The position numbers and the translations under genes were made by a program. A model generated the notes under the pieces. It was not told the origin of the DNA. It saw only the letters and a program-made list of their open reading frames with translations, and did no database searches. 32,000 nucleotides of DNA from Horticoccus luteus (GTDB taxonomy: Bacteria > Verrucomicrobiota > Verrucomicrobiia > Opitutales > Opitutaceae), in NCBI RefSeq assembly GCF_019464535.1, contig NZ_CP080507.1, positions 2,100,001-2,132,000 of the forward strand, given 5' to 3'. Below are positions 11,751-25,738 of the stretch, in pieces. Position 1 is the first letter of the stretch; every line of letters starts with the position of its first letter.

Positions 11751-11787
11751 ATTTGGCCACCCGTAGTATATTTTTCACCTGTAGCTC

Positions 11788-11817
11788 TGGACAAAGCTGT
11801 ATTTACCATTATGTAAT
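11788..11817 (+). promoter_or_regulatory. Candidate sigma70-like promoter for the xis-primase-helicase operon
   Basis: TGGACA (11788-11793), a 16-nt spacer, then TATGTA (11810-11815), all within the AT-richest patch of the island. Pattern match only. Confidence 0.25.
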
Positions 11818-11859
11818 GCTCCGTGATAACACACCTCGAAATAAAGAGCAGCAGAATGG

Positions 11860-12956: not shown

Positions 12957-14302
12957 GCGCCCTCGAACTGACCGCAGAATGGATCCCGGTCGATGACGCT
13001 GCGCTGGGGATCGTGCCTCCACCATCTCCTCCCCTCGCGTTTTTCGACCCACCACGAAACGCCTACTGGTTCCAGAACTCCCGCGGTGGCTGGATTACAC
13101 TGCCAGAAGCTGCGCTCAAGCGACAGCTCCGGCCGTATCTGAGCAACAAAGCAGCCGAGACGGCACGTCTCTCTCCGCTCGACGAGCACATCAACAAGCT
13201 CCAAACCGAGTGCGACGTCGCCTATGCTGGGCCTCTGGCCGGCGCGCCGCCGGGGCTCAGGGAGTATGAGAGCCGGCGGCTCCTGATAACCGAAGGTCCA
13301 CAGATTATCGAGCCGGTGCCGGGTGAGTGGCCGGTGCTCAGTCTCGTGTTGGAAAACCTCCTCGTCGACGAGCGCGGAGATCAGCGGCCATACTTCTACG
13401 GATGGCTGAAAATCGCCCGCGAGTCACTGATCGCTCAGGTTCACCGCCCGGGCCAAGCGCTCGTGTTGGCTGGTCAGCACGACAGCGGCAAATCTCTCGT
13501 TCAGAACTTGATCACACCGCTCTTGGGCGGCCGCGCAGCGAAGCCCTACGGATGGATGACCGGAGCCACCGACTTCAACGCCGAGCTATTCGGCGCCGAG
13601 CATCTCGTGATCGAAGACGAGTTCGCCAGCACGGACATCCGCGCGCGTCGCAACTTCGGCGCCCAGATCAAAAGCGTAACCGTTAACAGTCTTCAGAAAT
13701 GCCATCAGAAGAACCGGACGGCGCTCTCTCTCGAGCCGTTTTGGCGCGTGACAATCACGGTAAACGATGAGCCCGAGAACTTGATGGTGCTACCCCCGTT
13801 CGACGACAGCGTGGCGGATAAAATCATCCTGTTGCGCGCCAACAAGCGTCCCATGCCGATGCCGACCGCCACCTACGAGGAGCGTAAGGCCTTTATGGCA
13901 ACGTTGACGGCAGAGCTGCCGGCGTTCTGCCACTTTCTATCGGCATACGCCATCCCGGCCGAACACGTCTCTCACCGATTCGGCATCACGCACTATCACC
14001 ATCCTGACCTGCTAAACGCGCTCGACGAGCTCGCTCCTGAAACACGACTGCTGCAGCTCTTGGAAACCGCCATCACCGAAAGTTGGACAGGGAGTCAGGC
14101 GCAGTTGGAAGCGCTGCTTACCGGACCGGATGCCGAGACAGCATACGAAGCGCGGCGGCTGTTTTCATTCCCGAACGCCTGCGGGGTCTACTTGGCGCGT
14201 CTGGCGAAGAAACGTCCGGATGCGGTGCGATACCGCCGCACGGGGACAAGTCGGACGTGGACGATCTGGCCGGACCGTGAACCCGCGCAGGGGCCCTACT
14301 GA
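12953..14302 (+). CDS. SF3 (D5/P4-family C-terminal type) P-loop helicase
   Basis: 449 aa. Walker A is LAGQHDSGKS, Walker B is HLVIEDEF, and the motif C-like segment is VTITVNDEP. The layout is typical of phage/plasmid primase-associated SF3 helicases. Confidence 0.8.
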   Translation: MSALELTAEWIPVDDAALGIVPPPSPPLAFFDPPRNAYWFQNSRGGWITLPEAALKRQLRPYLSNKAAETARLSPLDEHINKLQTECDVAYAGPLAGAPPGLREYESRRLLITEGPQIIEPVPGEWPVLSLVLENLLVDERGDQRPYFYGWLKIARESLIAQVHRPGQALVLAGQHDSGKSLVQNLITPLLGGRAAKPYGWMTGATDFNAELFGAEHLVIEDEFASTDIRARRNFGAQIKSVTVNSLQKCHQKNRTALSLEPFWRVTITVNDEPENLMVLPPFDDSVADKIILLRANKRPMPMPTATYEERKAFMATLTAELPAFCHFLSAYAIPAEHVSHRFGITHYHHPDLLNALDELAPETRLLQLLETAITESWTGSQAQLEALLTGPDAETAYEARRLFSFPNACGVYLARLAKKRPDAVRYRRTGTSRTWTIWPDREPAQGPY

Positions 14303-14408
14303 CGGTGACGGGGTGACGGGTGACTGCGGTTTCCTACGGTCAAGGGGACGGAAGGCTGCCTTCCAGCTGATTTTCGTTGCGGCAGAAAACACCCCGTCAC
14401 CCCGTCAT
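14300..14408. repeat. TGACGG(G/GG) repeat cluster forming a perfect 15-bp inverted repeat around a 72-nt spacer
   Basis: Direct copies of TGAC start at 14300, 14306, 14314 and 14321. Two inverted copies (CCCCGTCA) lie at 14392-14407. 14306-14320 (tgacggggtgacggg) is the exact reverse complement of 14393-14407. An inner hairpin ggaagg-ctg-ccttcc sits at 14350-14364. Confidence 0.85.
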
Positions 14409-14470
14409 GCCTGCGGGAAGGCTCAGAATATACGTGCGGGTCCCCTTCTCTAGTCGACTGAAACCGTGTT

Positions 14471-14500
14471 TTCCCCCTCCCCGGGGGGGACAATATTTTT
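14471..14500 (+). terminator. Candidate intrinsic terminator for the plus-strand replication operon
   Basis: A C-rich/G-rich stem ttccccc..(tccccgg)..ggggga is followed by caatattttt (T5 run at 14496-14500). The stem geometry is imperfect. Confidence 0.35.
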
Positions 14501-14759
14501 GAGTTTCAATAGAACCGATCTCCCTCAGCCGAGGAGCCCGGGCCAAGGTCCTAAGATCCTCAAACCCACTCCGCCTGGTGGCATAGTTAACCTACTGTAT
14601 ATGCTACGCTTAGCAAATCCACCAGAAGTAGCTCATGCTGTCGGAGGCAAGCTATCCCAAGTTGTCGCACCGACACGCTACCAGCGGTCACTGCGCCGAG
14701 ACTCTGTTCGCGCAGAGTGCCTTGTGTGAGCGCACAAGACGGCAGCGAAATGTCTTCGA

Positions 14760-15402
14760 GCCTTCGGACCGCGGACACTGAGGCTCTGTCACGCCAGTCG
14801 CTCACGCGGTGCGCTTCGCCCACTCCGTTCGCTGCCTGTCGCGCCCGAGCCTCAGCGACCGCTCGCCCTGTCGCCCGCGGCCACCTCAGCCATTCGGACA
14901 GCGTGGAATCGCGCTCAGCTCCTCCCGTCGCCTCTCTACGTTCGGCGCGAGTCCGCTTCGCACGCCTCCACCCGGCCTGTTCTTGGAAGGACTCGCCTTC
15001 GGCTCGGCGTCACTGCCCCCCCCGGCTCACGACAGCGCCCAAGTTTCTTGGGCCTCAGGCTCTGCGTCGCTTCCAATCCCCGGCCGGTGAGCACCAACCG
15101 CCTTCGCACCGCAGGCGCCCATGTCCGACCGACCTGCGTTCCGCTACGCGCGTCCGCTCCGCCCGGCCGTCTCCGTGCAGCGACGGTCCGGCCGGCTGGT
15201 CCTCTCCCCTTGTTCCTCAGACTCGTGCCGAGACTGAGGAACCTCGCTCCGCGAACAGGGCTGCGCTCCAGCCGGCTTTTTCGGCCCGACGCCGCCCTTC
15301 GCCTGCCTGGCTCCGCTCCCGCACTTCGCTCCTCTCCGGCCGTTCGGCCCTGCGCGCCTGCTCGCCTGATCGCCGGTGCAGCGCAGACCCCGAATTCGCC
15401 AG
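14760..15402. other. ORF-poor, very GC-rich, strongly strand-skewed segment (C much greater than G, A nearly absent on the + strand)
   Basis: Hand counts on two 60-nt lines (14821-14880 and 15301-15360) give C 29-30, G 16-17, T 10-13 and A 1-4. CTTCGC recurs 5 times. All + frames translate to Arg/Ser/Pro junk. Minus frames are open only because T is rare and also read as junk. Confidence 0.7.
15212..15242. other. Strong hairpin (13 bp plus one A-A mismatch, 3-nt loop) with no U-tract
   Basis: gttcctcagactcg-tgc-cgagactgaggaac lies about 160 nt downstream of the Sel1-repeat gene stop. It is possibly a tail-less terminator or an RNA processing element. Confidence 0.5.
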
Positions 15403-16746
15403 TCAGCTCGTTTTCGATGAGGTCTTCTCGTCCGTCAGCTCCGCCTCGATCTGCTCACAAGCACCGAAGCTCATCCGGTGAAACTCGTCCTCCAATCGCT
15501 CCATTTCATCGAACCTCTCTCGCAAAGCCGTCTTCTCCGCCGACGACGTGCAACGTCCATCCAACTCCATGAAGGCACCTCGTGCGAGACTTCGCGCCAA
15601 GGAAATCTGTTGCATCATGCGAACGTAATACAGGGCTGCATCTCGCGCCGTGATCTTCGCCAAACCGCTCACCCGCTCCTCTTCCCACTTCATCGGGTTT
15701 CTGCACCCCGCCAGCAACGGTAGCGTTGAGAATTGCTGCTCACCCGCCTTGGGATGATCAACCGGCTCCAGTAGGCCATCATACCACGCCAGCAGGTCCT
15801 GGGCGGCTTTGCGAAACCTGGGCGAGATGGCGGCCCGTGGTGCAATCGGAGGCCCCTCCGCCGGAGCTGTTGTATTCCGAAGAGCCACGGGAGGCGCCAG
15901 CGTCAGATTCTTCACCGAATCGCTTATCTCTTGGCTCCGCTGCTGTGCTTGGAGTGCCAGTTGCCTGCCGACATCCTTCTCCATTTGTTCGCGGAGCGCA
16001 ACGAACTCAGGGTAGCCCGCAGCCGCCGCGACGTTCATCCATGCAAGCCCCTCCACTTCGTTCTTCGGCACCCCTAGTCCCTGCGAATAGGCAATGCCGA
16101 TCAAGCCGATCCCCGCCGCGTCTCCCGCTTTGGCCGCCGTGAAGCTGTGCGCCAGGCCGGCGTGATAATTTTTCCGCACCCCCTGCCCTTCGAAATACAT
16201 CAGACCTACGGTCGCCTCCGCCCGCATATCGCCCAACTCAGCCGCCTTCGTATACCATTCCAGAGCCGTCTCAAAACTTCGGGTGACATCCTTGCCGGAA
16301 TAATAAGCGTCGCCGACCATCCTTCCGTATTTCCGCTGAAAATCGACGTGACCCATCTGGCAAAAGCGCTGCGCCCAACGCACCGCTTCGGCGTGATTTT
16401 TATCCAGCAAGTTGCCGGAGAGATGGCTTTCAACCAGAACAACCTGGGCCAGCGCGTAGCCCTGCAAAGCCGACTTGCTTATCCACGATACTGCGGCTCG
16501 CACGTCCTTTTCCACCCGCTCCCCCCGGGCGTAGATACATCCCAAAAGGAACTGTGCACTGGCGTCGCCCGCTTCTGCATCAGCGACGATGTCCGCCGGC
16601 AGGCCGGAGCGCTCTGAATCAACACCGGATGAACTGCGGCCTGTCGAGCTCGCAACAATGAGTCCGACCGCAATCCAGATTATCCTCCATCCAAGACGTG
16701 GCGCGAAGACCGTATTCAGCAATGTCCCGCTTGTAGATCTTCGCAT
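15403..16746 (-). CDS. Sel1-like repeat (SLR/TPR-type) protein with an N-terminal transmembrane/signal segment and a C-terminal domain of unknown function
   Basis: The ATG at 16746 gives MRRSTSG...GWRIIWIAVGLIVASS, a hydrophobic helix. Repeated SLR units follow: AQFLLGCIYARGERVEKDVRAAVSWISKSALQGYALAQ, ALEWYTKAAELGDMRAEATVGLMYFEGQGVRKN and GIAYSQGLGVPKNEVEGLAWMNVAAAAG. The last 170 aa or so were not recognised. Confidence 0.75.
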   Translation of the reverse strand: MRRSTSGTLLNTVFAPRLGWRIIWIAVGLIVASSTGRSSSGVDSERSGLPADIVADAEAGDASAQFLLGCIYARGERVEKDVRAAVSWISKSALQGYALAQVVLVESHLSGNLLDKNHAEAVRWAQRFCQMGHVDFQRKYGRMVGDAYYSGKDVTRSFETALEWYTKAAELGDMRAEATVGLMYFEGQGVRKNYHAGLAHSFTAAKAGDAAGIGLIGIAYSQGLGVPKNEVEGLAWMNVAAAAGYPEFVALREQMEKDVGRQLALQAQQRSQEISDSVKNLTLAPPVALRNTTAPAEGPPIAPRAAISPRFRKAAQDLLAWYDGLLEPVDHPKAGEQQFSTLPLLAGCRNPMKWEEERVSGLAKITARDAALYYVRMMQQISLARSLARGAFMELDGRCTSSAEKTALRERFDEMERLEDEFHRMSFGACEQIEAELTDEKTSSKTS

Positions 16747-16798
16747 GTTTAGAGGGCGGAGGGCCACACCGAGTGGCACACGCAACCCGCTACTTACG

Positions 16799-17047
16799 TC
16801 ACGCGTTATGCTTATGCGCAAGTTCCGAAATCTGGCGGCGTGTCCCTCGTCGCCGCACTCTCCGCCAACGTTCGTCGCGCGCGCTTAGAATTCTAAGGGT
16901 CGGCTCGTAGAGGACATACTCGCTGAACGCCTCGTTCATTTCACAAGCAGCCAGGTAACTGACGTAGCCACATAGCCCACGCTGAATTCGAAAGAGCACA
17001 TCTCGGGGTTCATTCCCAATACCCGGTTCCGACGCGTTTTGTTTCAT
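16799..17047 (-). CDS. Hypothetical small protein (82 aa) directly downstream of the short pAgo
   Basis: The track ORF starts with TTG at 17065 and the first ATG is at 17047. The central part (RDVLFRIQRGLCGYVSYLAACEMNEAFSEYVLYEPTLRIL) looks protein-like, while the C-terminal tail is Arg-rich. Coding status is uncertain. Confidence 0.3.
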   Translation of the reverse strand: MKQNASEPGIGNEPRDVLFRIQRGLCGYVSYLAACEMNEAFSEYVLYEPTLRILSARDERWRRVRRRGTRRQISELAHKHNA

Positions 17048-17087: not shown

Positions 17088-18692
17088 TTACATGTAAAAC
17101 TTATACTTGGTTTCGGCCTGAGTTCCCTTAGGTAGCTCAGTCAGAATTTTGCCCACGTCGCGCGCGAACCGAATGGTGATCGGAACGCTGCTGGCGAAGG
17201 AACAGCTATTCCAATTGAGCTTGGTAAGAGCCAAGACTTCTTGGCAGACCGTCTCGGCTGGAGAGACGCCGTGGTGTTCAAGAATCTCCAGCGGCCGAGG
17301 AATGCGCTTTCCTGGATAAGCGCGAAGGTAAGGCACGTATCCATTCCCGAAAAGCAGGTAGTTACCCTCCCCCAGCGTTACCACGGTGCCCCGCAGCGGG
17401 GGACGTCGGCCGATGCGCATGAAGCGCACGTCGCTGGTTTCCAGCGCAAGGAAATCGAAATGGTAAACGTCACCCAGCGCCGCCTTGAACCCCTCTATTT
17501 CTTCCGGCCAGTAGCGTGACGTTTTGTGAATCACCACGCGTTTCGGGGCCAGGGTATGCTGAAGTTTGTATTGCGCGATAGCTCGTTCAAGCAGGCTGCG
17601 CGCACCAGCCTCGCTCAAATGAGCCTTTCGGTCGCGCTTCTTGTCGAAGATTGCTTTCTCGCCCCGGATTACGATGCCTTCGCCGGCGCCGAACACTTGA
17701 GCAAGGCTCGTCTGCATGTCGGCCGCTCCGGCAGGACTCTCCTTGAAGAACGAGATGCCGACAAAACAGGTTTGATCCGGAAGCGACTGCAACCGCCAAG
17801 GGCTGTTACCGGCCTTGTAGTAAAGCGCCGTGAGGAGGTTCCAAGCGATGGATGCGGGATTGGAGTCCCCGAATGTCCGTTCCCACGCGAGTTGGGTTGG
17901 TAACCCTGATTTCATGGCGTGCGCCTTCAGGGCATGATGGATGTTAAAAAATCCGCTCGGCGAAGTATCGCGGTCTGGGTCATCGAATTCCAGTCCCAGA
18001 AACGACTGCCCAGTAACCTCCTGTTCTTTCGTCAATTTGTTCTGGAGTCGTTGCAATGGTGTCAGACGAACCTTCTGCCGTGCAAACGGAACGCCGATGG
18101 AGGCGCATTCGTCCTCCACGTCGGGCGGCAAGACGAGAACGACGACATCCGGGGCATCCTCCAGCGCAGCGATCGCGTCGATCTGCTTAACCGCTAGATC
18201 GACGACCTGCTTGATCTTCTCTTGGTCCTTGGGGGTCGCCAGCGCCTGCCGGAAGAAGTCCGGCGGAATAATCCGCTGATGAGAGGCATTGTCGGCGACA
18301 AAATTGGCGCGAAATGTCGCGGTCTCCGCGCAGCCGGGAAAATCTGGGAAGGTGTGAGGGTCGAGGGGCTTGTTCCGCTTGTTCAGTCCTGGCGACAGGC
18401 GGCCGTGAGCCCGACGGAGAAAGTCTTTGAACGTCTGGATGCCGGTCCCCGTGCCCACGAGTCCGATTTTAATGACACGCCCCGGTTGGAAGCCGTAGGG
18501 ACCGTGATCGTTGAGGCCGGCCTTGGGATCGACGGACACGCCGCCGTTGGCGAACACCAGCTTCGGCTCCTCGAGATGGAACGCGCGAAAAACAGGCGGC
18601 TGCCGGCGGATCAGCTCCTCGGTCAATGGGGGCTGGCTGACGGCACTCTGGTGCGGGCGGCGCCTATTCGAACGGTTTCTCATCGTCATCAT
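17088..18692 (-). CDS. Short prokaryotic Argonaute (MID-PIWI only), SPARTA-type partner
   Basis: About 534 aa, too short to hold N/PAZ domains. The N-terminus FHLEEPKLVFANGG...GPYG and the PIWI-region ALYYKAGNSPWRL are typical of short pAgos. It lies immediately downstream of a TIR-APAZ gene and overlaps it. Three ATGs (18692, 18689, 18683) are possible starts. Confidence 0.85.
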   Translation of the reverse strand: MMTMRNRSNRRRPHQSAVSQPPLTEELIRRQPPVFRAFHLEEPKLVFANGGVSVDPKAGLNDHGPYGFQPGRVIKIGLVGTGTGIQTFKDFLRRAHGRLSPGLNKRNKPLDPHTFPDFPGCAETATFRANFVADNASHQRIIPPDFFRQALATPKDQEKIKQVVDLAVKQIDAIAALEDAPDVVVLVLPPDVEDECASIGVPFARQKVRLTPLQRLQNKLTKEQEVTGQSFLGLEFDDPDRDTSPSGFFNIHHALKAHAMKSGLPTQLAWERTFGDSNPASIAWNLLTALYYKAGNSPWRLQSLPDQTCFVGISFFKESPAGAADMQTSLAQVFGAGEGIVIRGEKAIFDKKRDRKAHLSEAGARSLLERAIAQYKLQHTLAPKRVVIHKTSRYWPEEIEGFKAALGDVYHFDFLALETSDVRFMRIGRRPPLRGTVVTLGEGNYLLFGNGYVPYLRAYPGKRIPRPLEILEHHGVSPAETVCQEVLALTKLNWNSCSFASSVPITIRFARDVGKILTELPKGTQAETKYKFYM

Positions 18693-20100
18693 CGGGTTCG
18701 TCGCGGGGACCCGCGAATTCAGCGTTCGCCGCTGCGGCGGCCAAGTCGTCGTCCTGCTTGTCGAACAGCGACGCAAAGCGAATCTCATCAAAAGCTACAC
18801 CGACATCGAGCTGGCTCGTGGCCGGAATTCGGGCCACGACAATCTGCTCTCCGCCGGTGTCGACGCGGATCTCGCGGTGATTTTTCGCCATCACGAAACC
18901 CCAGAAGAGAATGTTGCGAAGAATGTCTGGGTTTTGCTGCTTCCCACCCCAGATGGTCGCCAGTTTGCCAGCACTCTTGCCGTCCACGCTGATATTGCCG
19001 TCGAGGGTAAAAAGGTAGTGGGGTTCGATCGAGACGTAGAGGTTATTGCCGACGCGCTTGAAGCAGAGCGACGCGCCGTGGTGGACCCAGAAGGTAGAAA
19101 TGCCGTCTTTCGCGGTCTTTTTCGCTGCGACCGCCACTCCCGTTTTCCTGCCCAGCATCGGCCATCGCCGATCACCGCCGTTCATCTCGGGCATGAAAAT
19201 GAAACGACCCTTGCCATCGCTCTTGATCCGAAGGGTGCGCATGTGGGAATTGAGCGCGGTGTTGAGCAGCGCCATCAGCCAAAGCCGCTTGTCCGGATGG
19301 ATGAACCAATCGTGGCGCGACTCCGGTGCGATCGTCTTCGGGTCGATCACCGCCCGCAGAGCCGTCGAGGACTGATTCAAATCGGCAAACGTATAGATGC
19401 GCTTTTCACGTAGCACGAAGGGCTCGGTTGACGGTGCCTTTGCCCAAACGTCCTTCTTCTCCCGGCAATCCGTGGCCGCGCCCCAAATGCGGGCCGGAAG
19501 GGCGGTAACCCGGAGGAGATTTGAGATCAGCACGTCCTGGACCCGGTCCGGCAACCACGAGACTTCGGGGCGCAATGGGGTTGGCAGGACGGGCGCGGTC
19601 GAAGCAAGCGGTGCCAGACGACGTCCGCGCTCCGCGGGCTGATTGCGAATCCGCCGCATCAATTCCACGAAGCTGCGGCGAAACTCCGCAGGCTTCCTGA
19701 AATCGATGTAACGCAAGTCCCGAAAGGGTGCGTAGAGATCGATGCGCTCGACTCCGCCCTTCGCGAGGTCACGGAGCAGGATCGGAATGAGCACGCCGCG
19801 CGAGTTGTTCGGGTCCGCAGCGACGATGTGCTTCCACTCGAATCGCGGCCAGTCCGCCTTGAGAAACTCCGGCGAAAGCACGGCAACCACGTGGCGCGCC
19901 GCTTTCATCCCAGCGTTCATCCGGTCGATGAGGCTTTGCCCGGCCTCGATGTCCCATTTATCGAAGAACACGCTCAGGCTGCGGGACTCCTTGCTGCCGT
20001 CTATCGTCTCGGACTCCACTTGCTCGGACAACGAGCGCACGAAATCGAGGTCTGCTCCGTTGTAGCAGATGTAGGCGTCCTTCTGTTCGATGATCGTCAT
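18664..20100 (-). CDS. TIR-APAZ protein (NADase effector partner of the short pAgo)
   Basis: 478 aa. The N-terminal TIR pattern is AYICYNGADLDFV...SVFFDKWDIEAGQSL (putative catalytic Glu in WDIEAG)...VVAVLSPEFLKADWPRFEW. A domain of about 300 aa sits in the APAZ position, and the C-terminal tail is acidic (EPDDDDEKPFE). Confidence 0.85.
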   Translation of the reverse strand: MTIIEQKDAYICYNGADLDFVRSLSEQVESETIDGSKESRSLSVFFDKWDIEAGQSLIDRMNAGMKAARHVVAVLSPEFLKADWPRFEWKHIVAADPNNSRGVLIPILLRDLAKGGVERIDLYAPFRDLRYIDFRKPAEFRRSFVELMRRIRNQPAERGRRLAPLASTAPVLPTPLRPEVSWLPDRVQDVLISNLLRVTALPARIWGAATDCREKKDVWAKAPSTEPFVLREKRIYTFADLNQSSTALRAVIDPKTIAPESRHDWFIHPDKRLWLMALLNTALNSHMRTLRIKSDGKGRFIFMPEMNGGDRRWPMLGRKTGVAVAAKKTAKDGISTFWVHHGASLCFKRVGNNLYVSIEPHYLFTLDGNISVDGKSAGKLATIWGGKQQNPDILRNILFWGFVMAKNHREIRVDTGGEQIVVARIPATSQLDVGVAFDEIRFASLFDKQDDDLAAAAANAEFAGPRDEPDDDDEKPFE

Positions 20101-20139: not shown

Positions 20140-21867
20140 TTAGCTGGCGGCGATTTCGGCCGCTGGCATGATCCGCAACGACTCGGAGATTAGCACCGGC
20201 TCGGTCAGTACTTTGCCGCCGCTATCGACGCCAAGCTTGAGCACGCGCTCGCCGCTCGGCCGCACCGAGCGATCAAAGCTGCCAACGGCATCGTTGTAGG
20301 CGTTGGTTGCCTTCTCCAGCCCGCTTCGGATGCTGTCAAAATGGCGAGTGAACGTCGCCACCCGCGAGAAAAGCTCAGATGCAGCTTCGGCGATCTCGCG
20401 GGCATTGACCGTCTGTTCGTGGTGCAACCAACTCGCGCTCACGGAACGCAACAACGCGATGAGTGATGCCGGCGTCGCCAGCGTGACTCGGCGCTGGGCA
20501 GCCCAAACGATCAAATCGCGGTCACCTTCCAACGCCGCGCTGAAGAGCGATTCTGCCGGCAAGAAAAGGACCACGTGGTCCAGCGCCTTGGGGAACTGGC
20601 TCGGATAATCACGCTCTGCCAGAGCCTTGATCGTTCCGCGGAGTTTGTCCGAGTGGGCCTTCAACAGTTCGCCACGCTTCAACTCATCCGTCACGCTGAG
20701 AGCGTTAAGGAAGTCGAGGTCGGGCACCTTCGAATCGACAATGATGACCCGGTCTCCCGGCAGTTTGACGACGAGGTCCGGCTTACCGTCCTCGGCTCGC
20801 TCCTGTTCGACGAAGTCGCAGTGCGCGCTCATTCCTGCGGCCTCGACGACCCGCCGCAGTGTCTCCTCGCCCCAACGACCACGCGCCTGTCCTGAACTCA
20901 GCACACGCCGGAGCTGAATCGTCTCCGTGGAAAGCGTCGTGCTGTGCTGCGCGAGCGTGGTGAGGTGTTTCGAAACCTCACCCATCATCGTCGCTTGGGT
21001 GGTCTCGCTCTGAGCCAACCGTTGCTGATAAACTTTCAGCTGTTCCTCCAGCGGCTTAACCAACGTCGCAATGGCCGCTTGTCGCTGCGCCAAGTCCCCT
21101 TTCGCACCTTCGTTGAACTTGGCGAGCGTCTCGTTCGCGAGCTGAAGAAACTCCGGCTGCAATTGCTTCAACGCGTCGGAGCTCATCGCGGCGAACGCCT
21201 CCCGAAGATCGCGCAGCGCTTTTTCGTGCCCTTCCTTCAGTTCGCGGAACTGTTCACTATTTGCGCGGTGCTGTTCGGCGTTCCGCTCATTGGCCGCATT
21301 CAGATTTGCTTCCGCCGTGGCCAGTGCCGTGGTCAAGGATTCCGCGCGTGCTTGCGCCGTCTTGAGGTCGGCCGCCGTAGCCGACAGCTCAGTTTTGGCC
21401 GCGGATAGCGCCTCGTTACCGCGATTTTCGGTGAGCTTGATCCGTTGGTCTAACGCCTCCGTCTGGAGGGTCGCGGCCTTCAGATTGGCGTTGGCCGTGG
21501 CGAGCGCCGCAGTCGTTTCACTTACGCGCTCCTGCGCCGCTCTCAGATCCGATACGGCCGTGGCTAACTCTGCTTTGATGGTCGCGGCCGTTTCGTCCCC
21601 ACGGGTCTCGGTCGATTTAACCTCAACTTCCAACTCCCGCGCGCGAGCCACCGCCGCTTGCAGGCTCGCGTCCGCGGCCGATCGTGCGGCCTCCGCCTGC
21701 AACCGCGCCGCCTGACACTGCTCCAGGTCAGCTTTCAGTGCTTCGGCTTGCTGGCGCAACTCGTCTTCGAGACGCGAATCAGCGGGAGCGTCCTTCGACG
21801 CGCGAAAGATCCAACCAATCGCGAGGCCCGCGATTAAGCAGACGAGGATCAGAAAAAGGGTATTCAT
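20140..21867 (-). CDS. rmuC: RmuC-family DNA recombination/nuclease protein with an N-terminal TM helix and an expanded coiled coil
   Basis: The ATG at 21867 gives MNTLFLILVCLIAGLAIGWIF, a TM helix. A long Ala/Glu/Gln-rich coiled coil follows. The C-terminal segment RGRWGEETLRRVVEAAGMSAHCDFVEQ...PDLVVKLPGDRVIIVDSKVP is the RmuC nuclease-fold signature. Confidence 0.85.
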   Translation of the reverse strand: MNTLFLILVCLIAGLAIGWIFRASKDAPADSRLEDELRQQAEALKADLEQCQAARLQAEAARSAADASLQAAVARARELEVEVKSTETRGDETAATIKAELATAVSDLRAAQERVSETTAALATANANLKAATLQTEALDQRIKLTENRGNEALSAAKTELSATAADLKTAQARAESLTTALATAEANLNAANERNAEQHRANSEQFRELKEGHEKALRDLREAFAAMSSDALKQLQPEFLQLANETLAKFNEGAKGDLAQRQAAIATLVKPLEEQLKVYQQRLAQSETTQATMMGEVSKHLTTLAQHSTTLSTETIQLRRVLSSGQARGRWGEETLRRVVEAAGMSAHCDFVEQERAEDGKPDLVVKLPGDRVIIVDSKVPDLDFLNALSVTDELKRGELLKAHSDKLRGTIKALAERDYPSQFPKALDHVVLFLPAESLFSAALEGDRDLIVWAAQRRVTLATPASLIALLRSVSASWLHHEQTVNAREIAEAASELFSRVATFTRHFDSIRSGLEKATNAYNDAVGSFDRSVRPSGERVLKLGVDSGGKVLTEPVLISESLRIMPAAEIAAS

Positions 21868-22073
21868 GTGATTTTCGGGATAAGCGTTCAGGTCCTGGAT
21901 GGCGTGCCTACCGCGCACGCTAACACGCGGGGTGGGACAAATTCGGTCCCATCTGGATTTCCGTGCTGTGGAGCACGGGGCGAAAGCGGGGGCTAGTCTT
22001 CATTCGACCACACTATCTCATCCGCGGAAACACGCTGGCCCAACGTGGTCGAGGCAGCTAACGTTTGTGTGAG
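21868..22073. promoter_or_regulatory. Divergent intergenic region between the LysR-like regulator and the RmuC-SPARTA gene string
   Basis: A 206-nt gap between divergent starts at 21867 (-) and 22074 (+), the arrangement typical of LysR-type regulators and their targets. No boxes were assigned. Confidence 0.3.
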
Positions 22074-23075
22074 ATGGCGCTCGATCAACTCTTCAAGCAG
22101 AAGGTCCCCACTCCTCGCCAACTGCACGCGCTGGTTAAGTTCGTCGAGCACGGCTCGCTTTCGGCTGCATTCGGGAGCGGCAAGAGCGCTCAGGGAGCCG
22201 CAACCCAGCAATTGGGCCGGATTGACCGGTGCCTCGGCATTCGCACGCGCAAGAGTGCCGGGGTGGTCAAGGTGCCGACCGATGAAGCCATCCAGCTCGC
22301 TGAGTTTTGTCGCGATTTCTTCCAGCGACTCGCTGATTTCAAAACGGGCGCCGAAGGAAAACCGAACAACTTTGTAGTCGGCGCGGGCGACAGCCTAATG
22401 TTCTACCTGCTCTTGCCAGCTCTGAGAACCACGGGGGCCTGGCGATCGTCCGTGGAATTGCACCTGCAGAATTTGCGGAGCCGCGAAATCGTCCATGGGG
22501 TTCTCGACGGTTCAGTTGATGTCGGGCTGGTGCGAGCCACGGCCGTGGAAGACGAACTCACCGACCGAAAGCGCCTGAAGGTAGAGCCGGTATGCCAACT
22601 GGGCTACGCGTTCTACGTTCGAACCGAGTTGCTGAAATCTTATCGAGGGAACATCGCCGACTCGCTCGCGCTGGTTAAATGGGGTAAGGCGAATCTGCCG
22701 TTGGCCACGTTTTGGGCCGAACACAGCACATACACGGAGGCCTTGGGCAGAGCGAAATTGGGCTGGCCGGCCCGCCTTCGCTGCGAGTCCTTCCCGCAGG
22801 TCGAACGCGCGATAATTGCCGCCGACTATTGCGGGATACTTCCACGCATCGCGTTCAGCAACATTCCGCCGGAGATCACCGAATTTGGCGTCGATCTACT
22901 TGCGCCGGTTTCGAGGAGCATCGGCCTCGTTTGGAGCTCAACCCTCACCCAGCGTCGTGCTGGCGGCGAAATCGCCCTGCGCGAATTGCGTTCAGCTCTG
23001 AAGACGGTCTGTGCTGGGCCAACGTTCAGCCACGAAGGTCGTCCAGAAACTCCGACGCGGGGTCGACGCAAGTGA
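22074..23075 (+). CDS. LysR-type transcriptional regulator-like protein (divergent HTH plus periplasmic-binding-fold effector domain)
   Basis: The first ATG is at 22074 (the track start at 22065 is TTG). LHALVKFVEHGSLSAAF...AATQQLGRIDRCLG matches the LysR HTH pattern loosely. The downstream alternating beta/alpha region (FVVGAGDSLMFYLLLPAL...VDVGLVR) resembles a LysR substrate-binding domain. Confidence 0.55.
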   Translation: MALDQLFKQKVPTPRQLHALVKFVEHGSLSAAFGSGKSAQGAATQQLGRIDRCLGIRTRKSAGVVKVPTDEAIQLAEFCRDFFQRLADFKTGAEGKPNNFVVGAGDSLMFYLLLPALRTTGAWRSSVELHLQNLRSREIVHGVLDGSVDVGLVRATAVEDELTDRKRLKVEPVCQLGYAFYVRTELLKSYRGNIADSLALVKWGKANLPLATFWAEHSTYTEALGRAKLGWPARLRCESFPQVERAIIAADYCGILPRIAFSNIPPEITEFGVDLLAPVSRSIGLVWSSTLTQRRAGGEIALRELRSALKTVCAGPTFSHEGRPETPTRGRRK

Positions 23076-25098
23076 CGAGCAGTTCGTCCCGCGCCCGCGT
23101 GCAGGCCACATAGAGCAACTGACGCTCGGTATCATAGATTTCCTGCAGGTCGGACCCTTCACCGGCGCTCTGGATTCGCTGCTGCAATGGCACGACATCA
23201 TCATCGCAGGCCATCACCGCTACGGCGCGAAACTCCAAGCCTTTCGCCAGGTGCATCGTGCTGATGGCAACTTGGCCGCCGGTCGTTTCGAGATGCTCAT
23301 CGAGAATCTTGCCCGAGAGTTTTGCCGACTTCACCGCCATCTCGGCCCGGCTTACCTCGGCCGGTGAACGGACAATCACACCGATTTCGTGAGGTAGAAC
23401 TCCTTTGCTGATTTGGCGGGTCAGCCATTCGCCGACGGCCGACGCTTCCCGACTTTCGCTCGGAAGAATTTGAATTTCTGCGGGTGGGCCATTGAAGACC
23501 GATATGGTATCATGGCGGGTTTCTCGGTTGCCGTCTACGTCCACCATTTCGGCGCCGAGCAAACGATCCGCCTGCTCGCGAATCTGGTGCGACGTTCGAT
23601 AATTTATCCGGAGTGTTCGGGAGCGGCCGCGAACGTCCACGCCGAGCGACTTCCACGAAAACGGCTGCTGAAAGATTCGTTGCCCAAGATCACCGGCGAA
23701 GAAAAGGGCATTGGCGCGACCTCCGCCGAGCGCAGCAAAAAACCGCAACTGCGACACGGTGATGTCCTGCGCTTCATCAACAACAGCGAAGTCAAAGGGC
23801 GGACGTTTCGTTTCGAGGGTGTGTGCGGTGAGTCGGGAAAAAACAGATGCCAGAGTCTTGAGCCCACGTTCGGTCAGCCCCGCGCGAACGCGCTCAAAGA
23901 TCGACCAGAGCAATGCACGTTGTGCTTCTGGCAATCGGGTCTTTCTGCCGAGACGCGCCACGTCACGATATGCTTCCCACGTCGATAGGTCCCACGCATC
24001 GACGACTTGCTCCCACTCGGTCAGCAGGAAACGCAGGTGGAATTTGTGGCCGGGAACTGCCGTTGCGGCTGCCTGAATCAGATTTCTCACGTCCTCGGCC
24101 GGCGCCAGTTTCACGGGACCGATCTGCGACCGATAGAGGCGCAATCCGAGCATCTCCGAGGAGTAAACGTCGATTCGTTCGGCCAGGCGCGGCTCGTTTC
24201 CGATCAAGCGCCTCAGCTTCGTCCGCAGCGCAAATGCCAGCGTGTCGGAGAAAGTAACCAGCAATACTCGCGCATCTGGATTTCTGCGCGCGAGCTGCAC
24301 TGCGCGATGGAGCGCCACGACCGTCTTTCCCGTGCCCGCCGATCCCGCAACGCGCGCCGGGCCGGAGTAGTCTCGCTCCACCAGCTCGCGCTGCTCGGGA
24401 TGCAAGAAGATGGTCCACTTCTCCCAGGGGAATTCCAAGGCGCGTTTCAGATCGTCGACATTCGTTAGCAGCCGGAAACGACGCTGGGCGTCGGGATGCT
24501 CGAACGGGCTCGACGCAGCCGGGACCGGCTCGGCTGTCCGCGGCTTCCCGCCAGTGGCAAGTTCAAGGAGCGCTTCAGCGGCCTCGCCCGGCAGGCGCTC
24601 GGCGAGCACGAGCAGACTTTCTTCATTCACCTGCCGCACGTCGTCCAACCATTCCTCGGGCACACCGTAGCCAAGAAGCTCCTCATTGGTTTTGCTCGCG
24701 AAGAGCGGCGGTTTCACGGCGGTGGACTCTTCGGCCACGACGTAGGACGGAATGATTACTTCTTTGACCGTTTCCCGTATCTCCACGAATTGGGCCGCTC
24801 CTGTCTTCGGGTGTGTTTCCAACTTGCGCCGTTCTGCCCAGGCATAGGCCTTGTCGTGGTGATCGACATAACACAGCAGAAGGCTGCCAGCCGTTCGATG
24901 GACGATCAGGCGGATGTCCGAGTTGACGCGCACCGACCAGAAGTTCTTGTCCCGCGAACCATCGACGCGATGAAACTGCATTCCCGGGTTAGCGGGGTTG
25001 AGTTGGAGATCGAACGCCGTCGTCTTCGCGGCCTTCTGCTCGTCGCCGGTAAGCCTGGCTAGACTGTCGGTGAATGTGTCGGCGATGCGAAAATCCAT
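23026..25098 (-). CDS. UvrD/Rep-type SF1 helicase with an N-terminal RelE/ParE-like domain
   Basis: 690 aa. Walker A is VAGSAGTGKTVVAL, motif II is FAVVDEAQD, and the C-terminal motifs are ISTMHLAKGLEFRAV and LLYVACTRARDELLV. The N-terminal 100 aa or so (FWSVRVNSDIRLIVHRTAGSLLLCYVDHHDKAYAWA) resembles RelE/ParE-fold toxins. Confidence 0.8.
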   Translation of the reverse strand: MDFRIADTFTDSLARLTGDEQKAAKTTAFDLQLNPANPGMQFHRVDGSRDKNFWSVRVNSDIRLIVHRTAGSLLLCYVDHHDKAYAWAERRKLETHPKTGAAQFVEIRETVKEVIIPSYVVAEESTAVKPPLFASKTNEELLGYGVPEEWLDDVRQVNEESLLVLAERLPGEAAEALLELATGGKPRTAEPVPAASSPFEHPDAQRRFRLLTNVDDLKRALEFPWEKWTIFLHPEQRELVERDYSGPARVAGSAGTGKTVVALHRAVQLARRNPDARVLLVTFSDTLAFALRTKLRRLIGNEPRLAERIDVYSSEMLGLRLYRSQIGPVKLAPAEDVRNLIQAAATAVPGHKFHLRFLLTEWEQVVDAWDLSTWEAYRDVARLGRKTRLPEAQRALLWSIFERVRAGLTERGLKTLASVFSRLTAHTLETKRPPFDFAVVDEAQDITVSQLRFFAALGGGRANALFFAGDLGQRIFQQPFSWKSLGVDVRGRSRTLRINYRTSHQIREQADRLLGAEMVDVDGNRETRHDTISVFNGPPAEIQILPSESREASAVGEWLTRQISKGVLPHEIGVIVRSPAEVSRAEMAVKSAKLSGKILDEHLETTGGQVAISTMHLAKGLEFRAVAVMACDDDVVPLQQRIQSAGEGSDLQEIYDTERQLLYVACTRARDELLVTCVDPASEFLDDLRG

Positions 25099-25101
25099 TG
25101 G

Positions 25102-25738
25102 CTACGAATCGAGGTATGAAGTCGCCCGGATGAGTATGCCGCGTCGCGCGTGGGTCCGATGCAACAGGTCTTCCACGCCTTGGGGAGTGGGCGAGCTGAT
25201 CGCTCGGTCACCAATCAGGCATGCAAGATGATCTTCGAAAAACTTCTGAGCCTTGTGCCGCTTCACGGCGTCAAGATTGCCGCCCGCGGCTACGACAGAA
25301 TTGGCCGAGACGACGAAAACTCCACGTGATTCGTAGAGGAAGACGTATGATACCGGACTGAGTTCGAGCATGCGCTCGCATTGAGAAACCAGCTCCCGCA
25401 GGTCCAACACTCCCCATCTGCGAATCAGTTTCGCCTGGGCGAGAAACCCCTTCAACCGAGTATCCAGGAACGCTGACTTCGAGCACGCCCATGAAGTCGG
25501 CACCTGCCTTCGATTCCTGCGCGTATCGGCCACGATCTGTGAGGGTTTTTGCCCTCCAAAGGATCCCGTTGGTCTCGACACCAGTCAAAGCCTGTTCGAT
25601 TCGTCCGAGCATTCTATCCGTCATCGCGGGCTCCTGCTCCACTTGCCCGTCCAGCAACGAGGTCTCTGCACCCGTTATGGCGGCACCAATAACCTTGGCT
25701 ACCTTTCGCACCGACGCTTTGTAACAGGTCGGACGCAT
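25102..25738 (-). pseudogene. Frameshifted small gene (PD-(D/E)XK-like) between mod and the helicase: a pseudogene, a sequencing error, or a recoding site
   Basis: Two overlapping ORFs occupy the slot. The 25738 ATG overlaps the mod stop (TGATG), and the 25102 stop lies 3 nt before the helicase ATG. The span is 637 nt (3n+1). Sense-looking sequence switches frame near 25450-25480 (...QESKAGADFMGVLEVS | FLDTRLKGFLAQAKLIRRWG...). Confidence 0.65.

What the first reader, a model, noticed from the sequence alone, without database searches (positions are those of the whole stretch)
17088..20100. SPARTA-type short Argonaute system (TIR-APAZ plus short pAgo)
Two overlapping minus-strand genes encode the system. 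The first has an N-terminal TIR domain (FFDKWDIEAG with the expected catalytic Glu), an APAZ-sized region and an acidic tail. The second is a protein of about 534 aa with only MID-PIWI-like content. This matches the established architecture of short pAgo/TIR-APAZ (SPARTA) abortive-infection systems, which deplete NAD(P)+ on guide-RNA-directed detection of invading DNA. It sits in a lower-GC island next to mobile-element genes, consistent with horizontal acquisition. It is the clearest immune module in the window.
Basis: partly seen in the sequence, partly recalled or inferred. Interest (0 to 1): 0.75.

Follow-up and report, generated by a model that had tools for sequence, protein, structure and literature searches.

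The report
Divergent TIR-Argonaute defence gene pair
Two overlapping genes in a Horticoccus luteus defence island encode a short Argonaute and a TIR-APAZ partner that look like the known SPARTA anti-plasmid/phage suicide system, but they belong to a different, experimentally unstudied lineage (clade S2B) whose TIR enzyme appears to have been recruited separately.

Summary
18664-20100(-) encodes a 478-aa TIR + APAZ protein with an acidic tail. 17088-18683/18692(-) encodes a 531/534-aa MID-PIWI-only Argonaute, and the genes overlap by 20-29 nt. The SPARTA-type architecture holds, but membership in the SPARTA clade (S2A) does not.

- **APAZ:** its profile matches the HNH-APAZ of SPARHA (5e-43) and the DREN-APAZ of SPARDA (1e-12 to 5e-17). 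It barely matches canonical SPARTA TIR-APAZ (~1e-3).
- **TIR:** it matches AbTIR/TcpB-type TIRs and not the SPARTA TIR.
- **pAgo:** in an 84-sequence tree it nests among S2B pAgos (S2A|rest 100%; family 99-100%).

All 11 pAgos at 44% identity or above with an intact partner carry this TIR-APAZ. The SPARDA preprint already mentions "a subgroup of TIR effectors" in S2B, but I found no experimental study of one.

The invariant catalytic Glu is E88, in a W84-x3-E88 motif. Canonical SPARTA has Gly at the W position and makes only ADPR, so this TIR may make cyclic ADPR.

Most likely mechanism: guide-RNA/target-DNA recognition triggers oligomerisation, TIR NADase activity and abortive infection. This is inferred from homologues and was not shown here.

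Verdict: a new variant of a known kind, of moderate interest.

The parts
18664..20100 (-). TIR-APAZ gene, 478 aa (WP_220166262.1, annotated only as 'TIR domain-containing protein')
   Evidence: ORF; Pfam TIR_2 5.2e-21; PADLOC APAZ models; 100% identical to the H. luteus protein
19648..20085 (-). TIR domain (residues ~6-151)
   Evidence: Pfam TIR_2 over residues 10-143; AlphaFold secondary structure E7-12 to H137-151; profile hits to AbTIR, BtTir, TcpB and PdTIR at 4e-14 to 3e-9
19939..19968 (-). G54 is conserved and E52 is variable.
   Evidence: pLDDT <50 at residues 49-53; E52 is D28/E20/A20/G16 in the close family and G54 is 134/144; aligns with the AbTIR BB-loop region
19837..19851 (-). alphaC motif W84-P-R-F-E88: catalytic Glu E88 plus the aromatic residue equivalent to AbTIR W204
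   Evidence: E88 is invariant in 144/144 and W84 is W139/F5 of 144; aligned to AbTIR W204/E208; E88 aligns to the canonical SPARTA Glu by hhalign
19549..19647 (-). Flexible TIR-APAZ linker (residues ~152-184)
   Evidence: pLDDT <50 at residues 160-180
18766..19548 (-). APAZ domain (residues ~185-445), S2B type
   Evidence: PADLOC SIR2-/REase-APAZ models 8e-32 to 1e-26 against TIR-APAZ models ~1e-7; 9om4_A HNH-APAZ 2e-23 by sequence and 5e-43 by profile; Foldseek TM 0.81, rmsd 3.4 A, 25% identity to 9om4_A; pLDDT >90
18667..18765 (-). Acidic C-terminal tail (residues ~446-478), probably an autoinhibitory mimic of nucleic acid
   Evidence: 40% D/E in the last 30 residues, family mean 39%; disordered in the model; role taken from the BabSPARTA and XauSPARDA studies (PMC10899771; 10.1101/2025.04.08.647717)
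18664..18692 (-). Gene overlap: the TIR-APAZ stop at 18664-18666 lies inside the 5' end of the pAgo gene (starts at 18692, 18689 or 18683)
   Evidence: Sequence; the annotated start at 18683 gives the 531-aa protein that is in the public collection; family loci have junctions of -34 to +65 nt
17088..18692 (-). Short pAgo gene, 534 aa from the first ATG (531 aa as annotated, WP_220166260.1 'hypothetical protein')
   Evidence: PADLOC pAgo_I 2.1e-139; PDB short pAgos 1e-71 to 1e-44; Foldseek TM 0.75-0.89 to SPARDA, SPARHA and SPARTA pAgos
18588..18692 (-). Basic N-terminal extension (residues 1-35) that solved short pAgos lack; ends in the conserved D/E-x-L-I-x4-P-x-F
   Evidence: PDB alignments start at query residue 35-40; family alignment A3; residues 1-17 disordered and helix at 23-30
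17808..18587 (-). MID region (residues ~36-295, boundaries approximate), including the long MID-PIWI linker (193-247)
   Evidence: Alignment to solved short pAgos; linker of 53-59 residues shared with the SLFN, unkB, long-TIR and canonical SPARTA pAgos, and short in the DREN/HNH/SMEK pAgos
17814..17939 (-). Guide 5'-end binding pocket residues H252, H253, K256, Q267, K293
   Evidence: Invariant in family alignment A3; aligned to the R/H-x3-K...Q...K pocket of SPARDA, SPARHA and SPARTA pAgos
17091..17807 (-). PIWI region (residues ~296-534), catalytically dead
   Evidence: The aligned catalytic-equivalent positions S314, K390 and R511 are never acidic in the family. Koopal et al. report that all short pAgos lack the DEDX tetrad (PMC9097488)

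Best explanation
This is a two-gene, self-contained short-Argonaute abortive-infection module of the S2B lineage that carries a TIR effector. It is an 'S2B-type SPARTA', convergent in architecture with canonical SPARTA but not orthologous to it. The proposed mechanism has five steps. (1) The TIR-APAZ protein and the short pAgo form a 1:1 heterodimer, with APAZ supplying the missing N-terminal lobe. This is inferred from solved homologues, from the gene overlap and from tight co-variation. (2) The MID pocket (H252/H253-K256-Q267-K293) binds the 5' end of a small guide RNA derived from invader transcripts. This is inferred because every characterised S2 system (SPARTA, SPARDA, SPARHA) uses RNA guides and DNA targets. 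(3) Pairing with complementary invader ssDNA expels the acidic C-terminal tail from the nucleic-acid channel and moves the PIWI sensor loops, exposing Ago-Ago interfaces (inferred). (4) The complexes oligomerise, either as tetramers like SPARTA or as filaments like their closer relatives SPARDA and SPARHA. This brings TIR domains head-to-tail through the BB-loop (G54) so that a composite active site forms around E88 (inferred). (5) The TIR cleaves NAD(P)+, and the infected or transformed cell dies or arrests. The conserved W84-x3-E88 motif corresponds to the position that AbTIR needs for ADPR cyclisation and where canonical SPARTA has Gly. So the product is predicted to include a cyclic ADPR isomer as well as ADPR and nicotinamide (prediction). 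What is shown here is domain content, lineage placement, residue conservation and the conservation of the two-gene module. No step of the mechanism was shown experimentally.
For: Domains: TIR_2 5.2e-21; APAZ and pAgo PADLOC models. Lineage, APAZ: the family profile scores 9om4_A HNH-APAZ at 5e-43, DREN-APAZ chains at 5e-17 to 2e-12, and canonical SPARTA TIR-APAZ chains at only 1e-3 to 7e-3, in the APAZ part alone. BLASTP against canonical SPARTA from L011 gives TIR E=7.4, APAZ E=0.035, pAgo 26% identity. An exhaustive APAZ search returns relatives that carry TIR, Schlafen, DUF4365, Mrr/SIR2, HNH, EAD7 and HSDR_N effectors. Lineage, pAgo: NJ tree of 84 sequences with 100 bootstraps gives S2A|rest 100, the window's family 99-100, and the family nested with the HNH, DREN, SMEK, unkB and long-TIR clades to the exclusion of the SLFN clade at 80. 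Foldseek ranks SPARDA and SPARHA pAgos (28-32% identity) above SPARTA pAgos (22-26%). Module: 11 of 11 pAgos at 44% identity or above with an intact partner carry this TIR-APAZ; neighbours are not conserved; Mantel r=0.94 with 0/5000 permutations as high. Enzyme competence: E88 144/144, W84 aromatic 144/144, G54 134/144. The fold is TIR + APAZ, colinear with SPARTA TIR-APAZ over ~470 columns (hhalign). Literature: an S2B 'subgroup of TIR effectors' is noted (10.1101/2023.06.08.544223); the acidic tail is autoinhibitory in S2A and S2B (PMC10899771); SPARDA and SPARHA form filaments; W204 is needed for cyclisation and CrtSPARTA has G73 there.
Against: There are no biochemical data for this or any S2B-TIR system. 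The trees are neighbour-joining on p-distance-derived distances, rooted on S2A without an S1 or long-pAgo outgroup. The grouping of the family with the unkB and long-TIR clades has only 37% support, and a four-group test with few references was unresolved. An aromatic residue at the W204 position is associated with cyclase activity but does not guarantee it; the AbTir study reports weaker conservation at this position among non-cyclising TIRs, not absence. Pfam's Piwi model does not hit this pAgo. The oligomeric state cannot be predicted from sequence. The MID pocket is H-type like SPARTA, whereas most other S2B clades in the sample have RRKQK, so guide-end preference may differ from SPARDA and SPARHA.
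Confidence: 0.8

Rival explanations
1. It is an ordinary, merely divergent member of canonical SPARTA (clade S2A). On this reading the TIR-APAZ is orthologous to MapTIR-APAZ and CrtTIR-APAZ, activation is by tetramerisation, and the only product is ADPR.
For: The domain order, gene order and acidic tail are the same. The SPARTA TIR-APAZ chains are the only solved structures that align over both domains. hhalign is colinear over 388 columns. The MID pocket is H-x3-K and the long MID-PIWI linker is present, both as in SPARTA pAgos.
Against: The APAZ profile scores SPARHA and SPARDA partners 10-40 orders of magnitude better than SPARTA partners. There is no TIR-TIR sequence similarity. The pAgo is separated from S2A by splits with 100% and 80% bootstrap support. 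The alphaC residue is Trp where SPARTA has Gly. The long linker is also present in the SLFN, unkB and long-TIR S2B clades, so it does not indicate S2A.
Confidence: 0.05
2. The TIR is a signal generator and not a depleting enzyme. On target recognition it makes a cyclic ADPR isomer that activates a separate effector encoded elsewhere, in the manner of Thoeris.
For: The W84-x3-E88 motif is typical of cyclase-competent TIRs. The TIR is closest to AbTIR, BtTir and TcpB-type TIRs. There are weak PADLOC hits to ThsB.
Against: No third gene is conserved next to the pair in the window, L001 or L002. Koopal et al. report that only the APAZ protein associates specifically with short pAgos (PMC9097488). 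No SLOG, Macro or SIR2-type receptor gene appeared in the scans of the ORFs above 150 aa. AbTIR-type enzymes also deplete NAD+.
Confidence: 0.07
3. The pair is a decaying or non-defensive remnant, for example a regulatory nucleic-acid-binding complex whose TIR is a scaffold.
For: The pAgo is annotated as hypothetical and Pfam's Piwi model misses it. There is no expression or phenotype evidence.
Against: Both ORFs are intact and full length relative to about 100 homologues. The catalytic Glu, BB-loop Gly and MID pocket residues are invariant or nearly so. The partners co-vary. The pair sits among other defence genes in all three loci examined.
Confidence: 0.04

Closest known systems
SPARTA (short prokaryotic Argonaute/TIR-APAZ; clade S2A; MapSPARTA, CrtSPARTA, BabSPARTA; e.g. 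PDB 8FEX, 8ISY, 8QLO)
   Same: Two-gene operon with TIR-APAZ upstream of a MID-PIWI-only, catalytically dead pAgo. Acidic C-terminal tail. TIR with a catalytic Glu. H-x3-K MID pocket and long MID-PIWI linker. TIR-APAZ fold colinear over both domains. Presumed guide-RNA/target-DNA-triggered NAD(P)+ depletion.
   Different: pAgo only 22-29% identical. APAZ barely detectable (E ~1e-3 by profile, 0.035 by BLASTP). TIR not detectable by sequence. Different clade in the pAgo tree. Trp instead of Gly at the alphaC cyclisation position. The pAgo has a basic N-terminal extension.
SPARHA (short pAgo + HNH-APAZ; clade S2B; Acidithiobacillus caldus, PDB 9OM4)
   Same: Closest solved APAZ: 2e-23 by sequence, 5e-43 by profile, TM 0.81, rmsd 3.4 A, 25% identity. 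pAgo 35% identical. Acidic tail. Same broad clade.
   Different: The effector is an HNH nuclease that degrades DNA in a filament, not a TIR NADase. Short MID-PIWI linker and RRKQK MID pocket.
SPARDA (short pAgo + DREN/DUF4365-APAZ; clade S2B; Xanthobacter autotrophicus, Enhydrobacter aerosaccus and Novosphingopyxis baekryungensis; PDB 9QBQ, 9QBP, 9JSB)
   Same: Best-scoring solved pAgos: 1e-71 to 1e-60, 34-36% identity, top Foldseek hits. APAZ profile hits at 5e-17 to 2e-12. Acidic autoinhibitory tail.
   Different: The effector is a PD-(D/E)XK nuclease activated in filaments. Shorter MID-PIWI linker.
The 'subgroup of TIR effectors' in APAZ clade S2B, noted by Prostova et al. (10.1101/2023.06.08.544223)
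   Same: The description fits: a TIR fused to an S2B-type APAZ, which suggests effector exchange between short pAgo systems.
   Different: It is mentioned only in a phylogenetic survey. I could not check whether this exact family is in their tree. No biochemical or structural work on any member turned up in the searched literature.
AbTir/BtTir/TcpB/PdTIR-type bacterial TIR NADases (PDB 7UWG, 7UXU, 8G83, 7UXR, 4LZP, 3H16)
   Same: Closest solved TIR domains by sequence (1e-7 single sequence; 4e-14 to 3e-9 by profile). They share the W-x3-E alphaC motif and the BB-loop Gly.
   Different: They are stand-alone or coiled-coil-fused TIRs, not fused to APAZ and not controlled by an Argonaute.

Membership tests
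Short pAgo system (any clade) | Argonaute with MID and PIWI only (no N or PAZ domains) | tested here: met
   531/534 aa; full-length match to PADLOC pAgo_I (455-position model) at 2.1e-139; aligns end to end with 471-507-aa solved short pAgos
Short pAgo system (any clade) | PIWI lacks the DEDX catalytic tetrad | tested here: met
   The aligned positions S314, K390 and R511 are never acidic in the family. Caveat: these positions were assigned by motif alignment, not against an active Argonaute structure
Short pAgo system (any clade) | Adjacent gene encodes an APAZ-domain protein fused to an effector | tested here: met
   PADLOC APAZ models; PDB HNH-APAZ and DREN-APAZ hits; fold; genes overlap
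SPARTA in the architectural sense (short pAgo + TIR-APAZ) | The effector domain on APAZ is a TIR with a catalytic Glu | tested here: met
   TIR_2 5.2e-21; E88 invariant in 144/144
SPARTA in the architectural sense (short pAgo + TIR-APAZ) | Heterodimer whose NAD(P)ase activity is triggered by guide RNA plus target ssDNA | not testable with these tools
   Needs purification and enzyme assays; only co-variation (Mantel r 0.94) and gene overlap support complex formation
SPARTA in the phylogenetic sense (clade S2A) | APAZ groups with S2A TIR-APAZ proteins | tested here: not met
   Profile E-values are 5e-43 (SPARHA) and 5e-17 to 2e-12 (SPARDA) against 1e-3 to 7e-3 (SPARTA); BLASTP 0.035; the nearest non-TIR APAZ relatives are of S2B effector types
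SPARTA in the phylogenetic sense (clade S2A) | pAgo groups with S2A pAgos | tested here: not met
   NJ tree: S2A|rest 100%, family nested with S2B clades at 80%; 26-29% identity to SPARTA pAgos against 34-36% to SPARDA and SPARHA
SPARTA in the phylogenetic sense (clade S2A) | TIR of the SPARTA type (non-aromatic alphaC position, G73 in CrtSPARTA; ADPR-only product) | tested here: not met
   W84 (W139/F5 of 144) at that position; no sequence similarity to the SPARTA TIR; the product itself was not testable
Clade S2B short pAgo systems | APAZ and pAgo nested among systems with diverse effectors (DREN, HNH, Mrr/SMEK, SIR2, TIR subgroup) | tested here: met
   Caveat: NJ trees without an S1 outgroup
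Clade S2A/S2B short pAgo systems | Acidic C-terminal extension on the APAZ protein | tested here: met
   40% D/E in the last 30 residues; the feature is described in PMC10899771
Enzymatic TIR NADases | Catalytic Glu on alphaC and a Gly-containing BB-loop for the BE interface | tested here: met
   E88 144/144 and G54 134/144; aligned to AbTIR E208
Cyclase-competent TIRs (2'cADPR/3'cADPR producers) | Aromatic residue four positions before the catalytic Glu (AbTIR W204) | tested here: met
   W84; significance from 10.1101/2022.05.07.491051. This residue is associated with cyclase activity but is not proof of it; product analysis is needed

The most novel reading that the evidence does not exclude
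This lineage is an independently assembled 'second SPARTA'. On this reading an S2B-type Argonaute sensor, like its relatives SPARDA and SPARHA, polymerises into target-induced filaments. Those filaments drive an AbTIR-like TIR that cyclises ADPR, producing 2'cADPR or 3'cADPR. That would be an Argonaute-controlled TIR cyclase whose product might also act as a signal, in contrast to the tetrameric, ADPR-only canonical SPARTA.
Probability: 0.2. Interest if true: 0.65.

Novelty: new variant of a known kind. Interest (0 to 1): 0.45.

Why it matters
SPARTA is the model for Argonaute-controlled NAD+ depletion and is being developed as a nucleic-acid detection tool. This locus represents a populous lineage, with about 100 clusters of the close TIR-APAZ family plus a second TIR-bearing S2B clade. 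In it the same architecture arose on a different Argonaute/APAZ chassis with a different TIR. That makes it a natural test of three questions: how modular the sensor-effector coupling in short pAgos is, whether oligomer geometry (tetramer or filament) follows the sensor or the effector, and whether Argonaute systems can emit cyclic-ADPR products. It is also a practical warning that annotating every 'TIR-APAZ + pAgo' pair as SPARTA merges two non-orthologous systems.

Tried and rejected
- **Pfam Piwi/MID scan of the pAgo:** no hit even at E<=1. I relied on PADLOC, PDB and fold matches instead.
- **Single-protein scan of genome contigs:** A mixed alignment (A2) worked for the viral and metagenome collections.
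- **Small four-group pAgo tree** (family, SPARDA, SPARHA, one SPARTA): unresolved, with splits at 44/36/20%. Replaced by the 84-sequence tree.
- **Hypothesis that residues 193-247 of the pAgo are a family-specific insert**: rejected. The long linker is shared with the SLFN, unkB, long-TIR and canonical SPARTA pAgos, and the DREN, HNH and SMEK pAgos have a shorter one.
- **Comparison of the N-terminal extension across metagenomic loci:** unreliable, because start codons were chosen heuristically. I claim only its absence from solved short pAgos and from plasmid hits.
- **RmuC (39 nt upstream, same strand) or the Sel1 protein as a third component:** rejected, because neither is conserved next to homologous pairs.
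- **att-like direct repeats, tRNA or tmRNA at the island border:** none found.
- **Promoter and terminator scan around the operon:** nothing above the shuffled expectation.
- **Rfam on the window and on 14250-15450:** nothing.
- **Plasmid collection:** no member of the window's pAgo family; the nearest are 27-34% identical SPARDA, SMEK or SIR2-type systems.
- **Literature search for an experimentally studied S2B-TIR system or a cADPR-producing short pAgo:** none found in the held library. Subscription-only papers could have been missed.

Full report

Yes. The window holds two minus-strand ORFs at the stated coordinates.

- **TIR-APAZ, 18664-20100(-), 478 aa.** Pfam TIR_2 matches at 5.2e-21 over residues 10-143. 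PADLOC Argonaute-associated APAZ models (named 'PNTD1-PNTD2') match at 8e-32 to 1e-26 over residues ~182-457. The last 30 residues are 40% Asp/Glu.
- **pAgo, 17088-18692(-), 534 aa.** It matches the PADLOC pAgo_I model end to end at 2.1e-139. It also matches solved short Argonautes at 1e-71 to 1e-44.
- **Source.** The TIR-APAZ is 100% identical to a *Horticoccus luteus* protein (Verrucomicrobiota, Opitutaceae): WP_220166262.1, annotated 'TIR domain-containing protein'. The pAgo with its start at 18683 (531 aa) is WP_220166260.1, annotated 'hypothetical protein'.
- **Junction.** The genes overlap by 20-29 nt, depending on which of three ATGs is used.
- **Setting.** The pair is 59.3% GC. It lies in a 60% GC island that begins near 9.5 kb, after 65% GC core metabolism. 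The island starts with a tyrosine integrase and a P4-type primase-like gene. It also holds RmuC, a UvrD-like helicase, a type III-like methylase and a BPTD_3080-family endonuclease.

**2.

Pfam's Piwi model does not hit this pAgo.

The Glu in 'FFDKWDIEAG' (E52) is not catalytic. It lies in the BB-loop, which is a low-confidence segment of the model. It is D/E/A/G/V/K across relatives. The invariant Glu is E88 in 'DWPRFEW' (144 of 144 sequences). E88 aligns with AbTIR E208 and with the Glu of a canonical SPARTA TIR by hhalign.

**3. What is it? Architecture versus lineage**

The architecture is exactly TIR-APAZ plus short pAgo. The lineage is not the SPARTA lineage. Five lines of evidence agree.

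*(a) APAZ, by sequence.* The only solved partner hit by the single sequence is the HNH-APAZ of *Acidithiobacillus caldus* SPARHA (9om4_A, 2e-23). No SPARTA TIR-APAZ chain is hit. A 35-sequence family profile gives this ranking:

| Solved partner | Profile E-value |
|---|---|
| HNH-APAZ (SPARHA, 9om4_A) | 5e-43 |
| DREN-APAZ (SPARDA: 9qbp_A, 9qbl_A, 9qbq_A, 9jsb_D) | 5e-17 to 2e-12 |
| Canonical SPARTA TIR-APAZ (8ifk_A, 8z92_E, 8j8h_B, 8qlo_A) | 1e-3 to 7e-3, part of APAZ only |

*(b) TIR.* The same profile hits AbTIR, BtTir, TcpB, PdTIR and even MyD88 TIRs (4e-14 to 1e-6). It does not hit the SPARTA TIR. BLASTP of the window's TIR against a canonical SPARTA TIR recovered from viral contigs (L011) gives E=7.4.

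*(c) APAZ, exhaustive search.* A search of 1.84 billion representatives with the APAZ part alone found 585 relatives. Among the best 150, the N-terminal effectors are TIR (56), Schlafen/AlbA_2 (14), DUF4365/DREN (11), a mixed Mrr/SIR2/Metallophos cluster (10), HNH (4), EAD7, HSDR_N, and two groups with no Pfam hit. This assortment is how the literature describes clade S2B.

*(d) pAgo tree.* A metagenome scan with a mixed pAgo alignment returned 80 loci graded from 81% to 32% identity. Labelling each upstream partner gives:

| pAgo identity to the window | Partner |
|---|---|
| 44% or above, intact partner (11 of 11) | This TIR-APAZ |
| 36-40% | Mostly a ~590-aa TIR-APAZ with the same TIR type, or an unknown domain (unkB) |
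| 32-37% | DUF4365, Schlafen, HNH, SMEK |
| 26% | Canonical SPARTA |

In an NJ tree (84 pAgos, 455 columns, 100 bootstraps, rooted on canonical SPARTA) the S2A|rest split has 100% support and the window's family has 99-100%. The family is nested with the HNH (SPARHA), DREN (SPARDA), SMEK, unkB and long-TIR clades, to the exclusion of the Schlafen clade, at 80%.

*(e) Fold.* The AlphaFold models are usable: TIR-APAZ pLDDT 77.5 with the APAZ core above 90, and pAgo pLDDT 82 with pTM 0.80. Foldseek finds only short-pAgo partners for the TIR-APAZ. SPARTA TIR-APAZ chains align over both domains at 12-15% identity. The best local superposition is the SPARHA APAZ (TM 0.81, rmsd 3.4 Å, 25% identity). 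For the pAgo, SPARDA and SPARHA chains (28-32% identity) rank above SPARTA chains (22-26%).

hhalign shows the two TIR-APAZ types are colinear but only weakly related (probability 59%, 20% identity).

Conclusion: an S2B-type Argonaute/APAZ chassis carrying a TIR that is not the SPARTA TIR. This most simply reflects an independent recruitment or an exchange of effector.

**4. A self-contained module**

In the two closest genome loci the neighbours are different: a DEAD/ResIII helicase and an integrase in one, an AbiEii-type ATPase and a type I S subunit in the other. Neither RmuC nor the Sel1 protein recurs. Across 12 loci, pairwise identities of pAgo and partner co-vary (Mantel r=0.94; 0 of 5000 permutations as high), and the gene junction is -34 to +65 nt. 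This agrees with Koopal et al., who found that only the APAZ protein specifically associates with short pAgos.

**5. Family-specific features**

- **MID pocket.** It is H252-H253-K256-Q267-K293, invariant in the family. Most other S2B clades in the sample have RRKQK, and canonical SPARTA has HN/HD-KQK.
- **N-terminal extension.** The pAgo has a basic extension of about 35 residues that solved short pAgos and plasmid-borne relatives lack. It is disordered up to residue 17 and then has a short conserved helix.
- **MID-PIWI linker.** I first took the 193-247 linker for a family insert. It is not: the Schlafen, unkB, long-TIR and canonical SPARTA pAgos have it too, and the DREN, HNH and SMEK pAgos have a shorter one.
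- **PIWI.** The catalytic-equivalent positions are S314, K390 and R511, and none is acidic in the family.

**6. Most likely mechanism**

This is inferred from homologues and nothing here is experimental.

1. The two proteins form a heterodimer.
2. The MID pocket binds the 5' end of a small guide RNA.
3. Pairing with invader ssDNA displaces the acidic tail, which is an autoinhibitory element in BabSPARTA and XauSPARDA. It also shifts the PIWI sensor loops.
4. The complexes oligomerise, which brings TIR domains together through the BB-loop.
5. E88 then cleaves NAD(P)+, and the cell arrests or dies.

Two points are open and make the system worth testing.

- **Oligomer geometry.** Canonical SPARTA forms tetramers. 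The closer relatives SPARDA and SPARHA form filaments.
- **Product.** The position four residues before the catalytic Glu is Trp (W139/F5 of 144). In AbTIR this residue (W204) is needed for cyclisation of ADPR, and it is aromatic in all tested cyclase TIRs. CrtSPARTA has Gly there, which its authors link to ADPR-only output. So this enzyme may make a cyclic ADPR isomer.

**7. Comparison with what is known, and novelty**

The SPARDA preprint by Prostova et al. already states that S2B 'includes ... a subgroup of TIR effectors' and suggests effector exchange. So the existence of such systems is not new.

I found no biochemical or structural study of any of them in the searchable literature. Public annotation does not recognise this pair as an Argonaute system. 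I therefore rate it a new variant of a known kind. It works like SPARTA, but it fails the phylogenetic membership tests for SPARTA (S2A) and passes those for S2B.

**8. Caveats**

- The trees are neighbour-joining without S1 or long-pAgo outgroups.
- The relationship of the family to the unkB and long-TIR clades is weakly supported (37%).
- The PDB reference pAgo sequences were rebuilt from printed alignments and lack short unaligned segments.
- An aromatic alphaC residue is associated with cyclase activity but does not prove it.

Noticed in passing
window 20140-21918 (-): An RmuC-family gene lies 39 nt upstream of the TIR-APAZ on the same strand (Pfam RmuC 5.5e-79; PADLOC 'RTasRmuC' 2.6e-44). 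Its N-terminal half is Ala/Glu/Leu/Thr-rich and looks, by eye, like an internally duplicated coiled coil. It is not found next to homologous TIR-APAZ/pAgo pairs in L001 or L002, so it is probably not part of the system, though it may be co-transcribed here.
   Followed up: partly
window 23026-25098 (-): A 690-aa UvrD/PcrA-like helicase with a weak N-terminal HigB/RelE-like toxin match (6e-4). PADLOC's best hits are 'NERD+UvrD' and GajB models, and no GajA-like partner was seen. It may be a stand-alone defence helicase.
   Followed up: partly
window 25738-31909 (-): A type III-like restriction-modification module. It has a 947-aa methylase (PADLOC MTase_III E=0), a 220-aa ORF (weak PDC-S54 hit), and a 934-aa BPTD_3080-family restriction endonuclease (NCBIfam 1052 bits, cut-off 800). 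The endonuclease match covers model positions 206-969 only, so its N-terminus may be missing, split, or encoded from a start that was not recognised near the window end.
   Followed up: partly
window ~9450-14302: Left border of the island. GC drops from 0.65 to 0.60 after an AraC-family regulator (9446-10354). A tyrosine integrase (10434-11750), a 299-aa protein with no family hit (12057-12956) and a DUF5906/P4-primase-C-terminal-like protein (12953-14302) follow. This resembles a P4-like integrative element. No tRNA and no flanking direct repeats were found in the window.
   Followed up: partly
window 14303-15402: A 1.1-kb stretch with no convincing ORF and strong strand asymmetry (GC skew about -0.2, AT skew about -0.15). 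There is no tRNA or tmRNA, no Rfam match even at E<=1, and no plasmid similarity. The only long ORF (14717-15481, +) is Pro/Ser/Arg/Ala-rich and overlaps the 3' end of the Sel1 gene. Unexplained.
   Followed up: partly
window 15403-16821 (-): A 472-aa Sel1-repeat protein lies immediately downstream of the pAgo. It is not conserved next to homologous pairs.
   Followed up: partly
window 1-9447: The core region encodes a bacterial-microcompartment shell protein (4235-4879), a class II aldolase, a sugar-phosphate isomerase-like TIM barrel, an SDR, a 2-hydroxyacid dehydrogenase and an HpcH/cupin protein. This may be a sugar-catabolic microcompartment locus.
   Followed up: no
proteins P0275, P0255, P0356, P0224, P0245 group, P0250 group: APAZ modules related to the window's carry effectors that I did not see listed for short pAgos in the papers read: calcineurin-like phosphoesterase (P0275), EAD7 (P0255), HSDR_N (P0356), and two N-terminal domains with no Pfam hit. 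The Mrr-APAZ protein P0224 has an APAZ 41% identical to the window's, closer than many TIR-APAZ proteins, which points to a recent effector swap.
   Followed up: partly
loci L033, L034, L036, L040-L043, L045 (upstream genes): A second TIR-bearing S2B clade. The partners are about 530-600 aa, with about 77 extra residues before the same type of TIR. They pair with pAgos that are 36-40% identical to the window's and have an RRKQK MID pocket.
   Followed up: partly
pAgo alignment, window residues 189-250 (17943-18128): The MID-PIWI linker is 53-59 residues in the TIR, unkB, Schlafen and canonical SPARTA pAgos. It is only 22-29 residues in the DREN, HNH and SMEK pAgos. That may be a shared deletion marking the nuclease-coupled clade whose studied members (SPARDA, SPARHA) form filaments.
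   Followed up: partly
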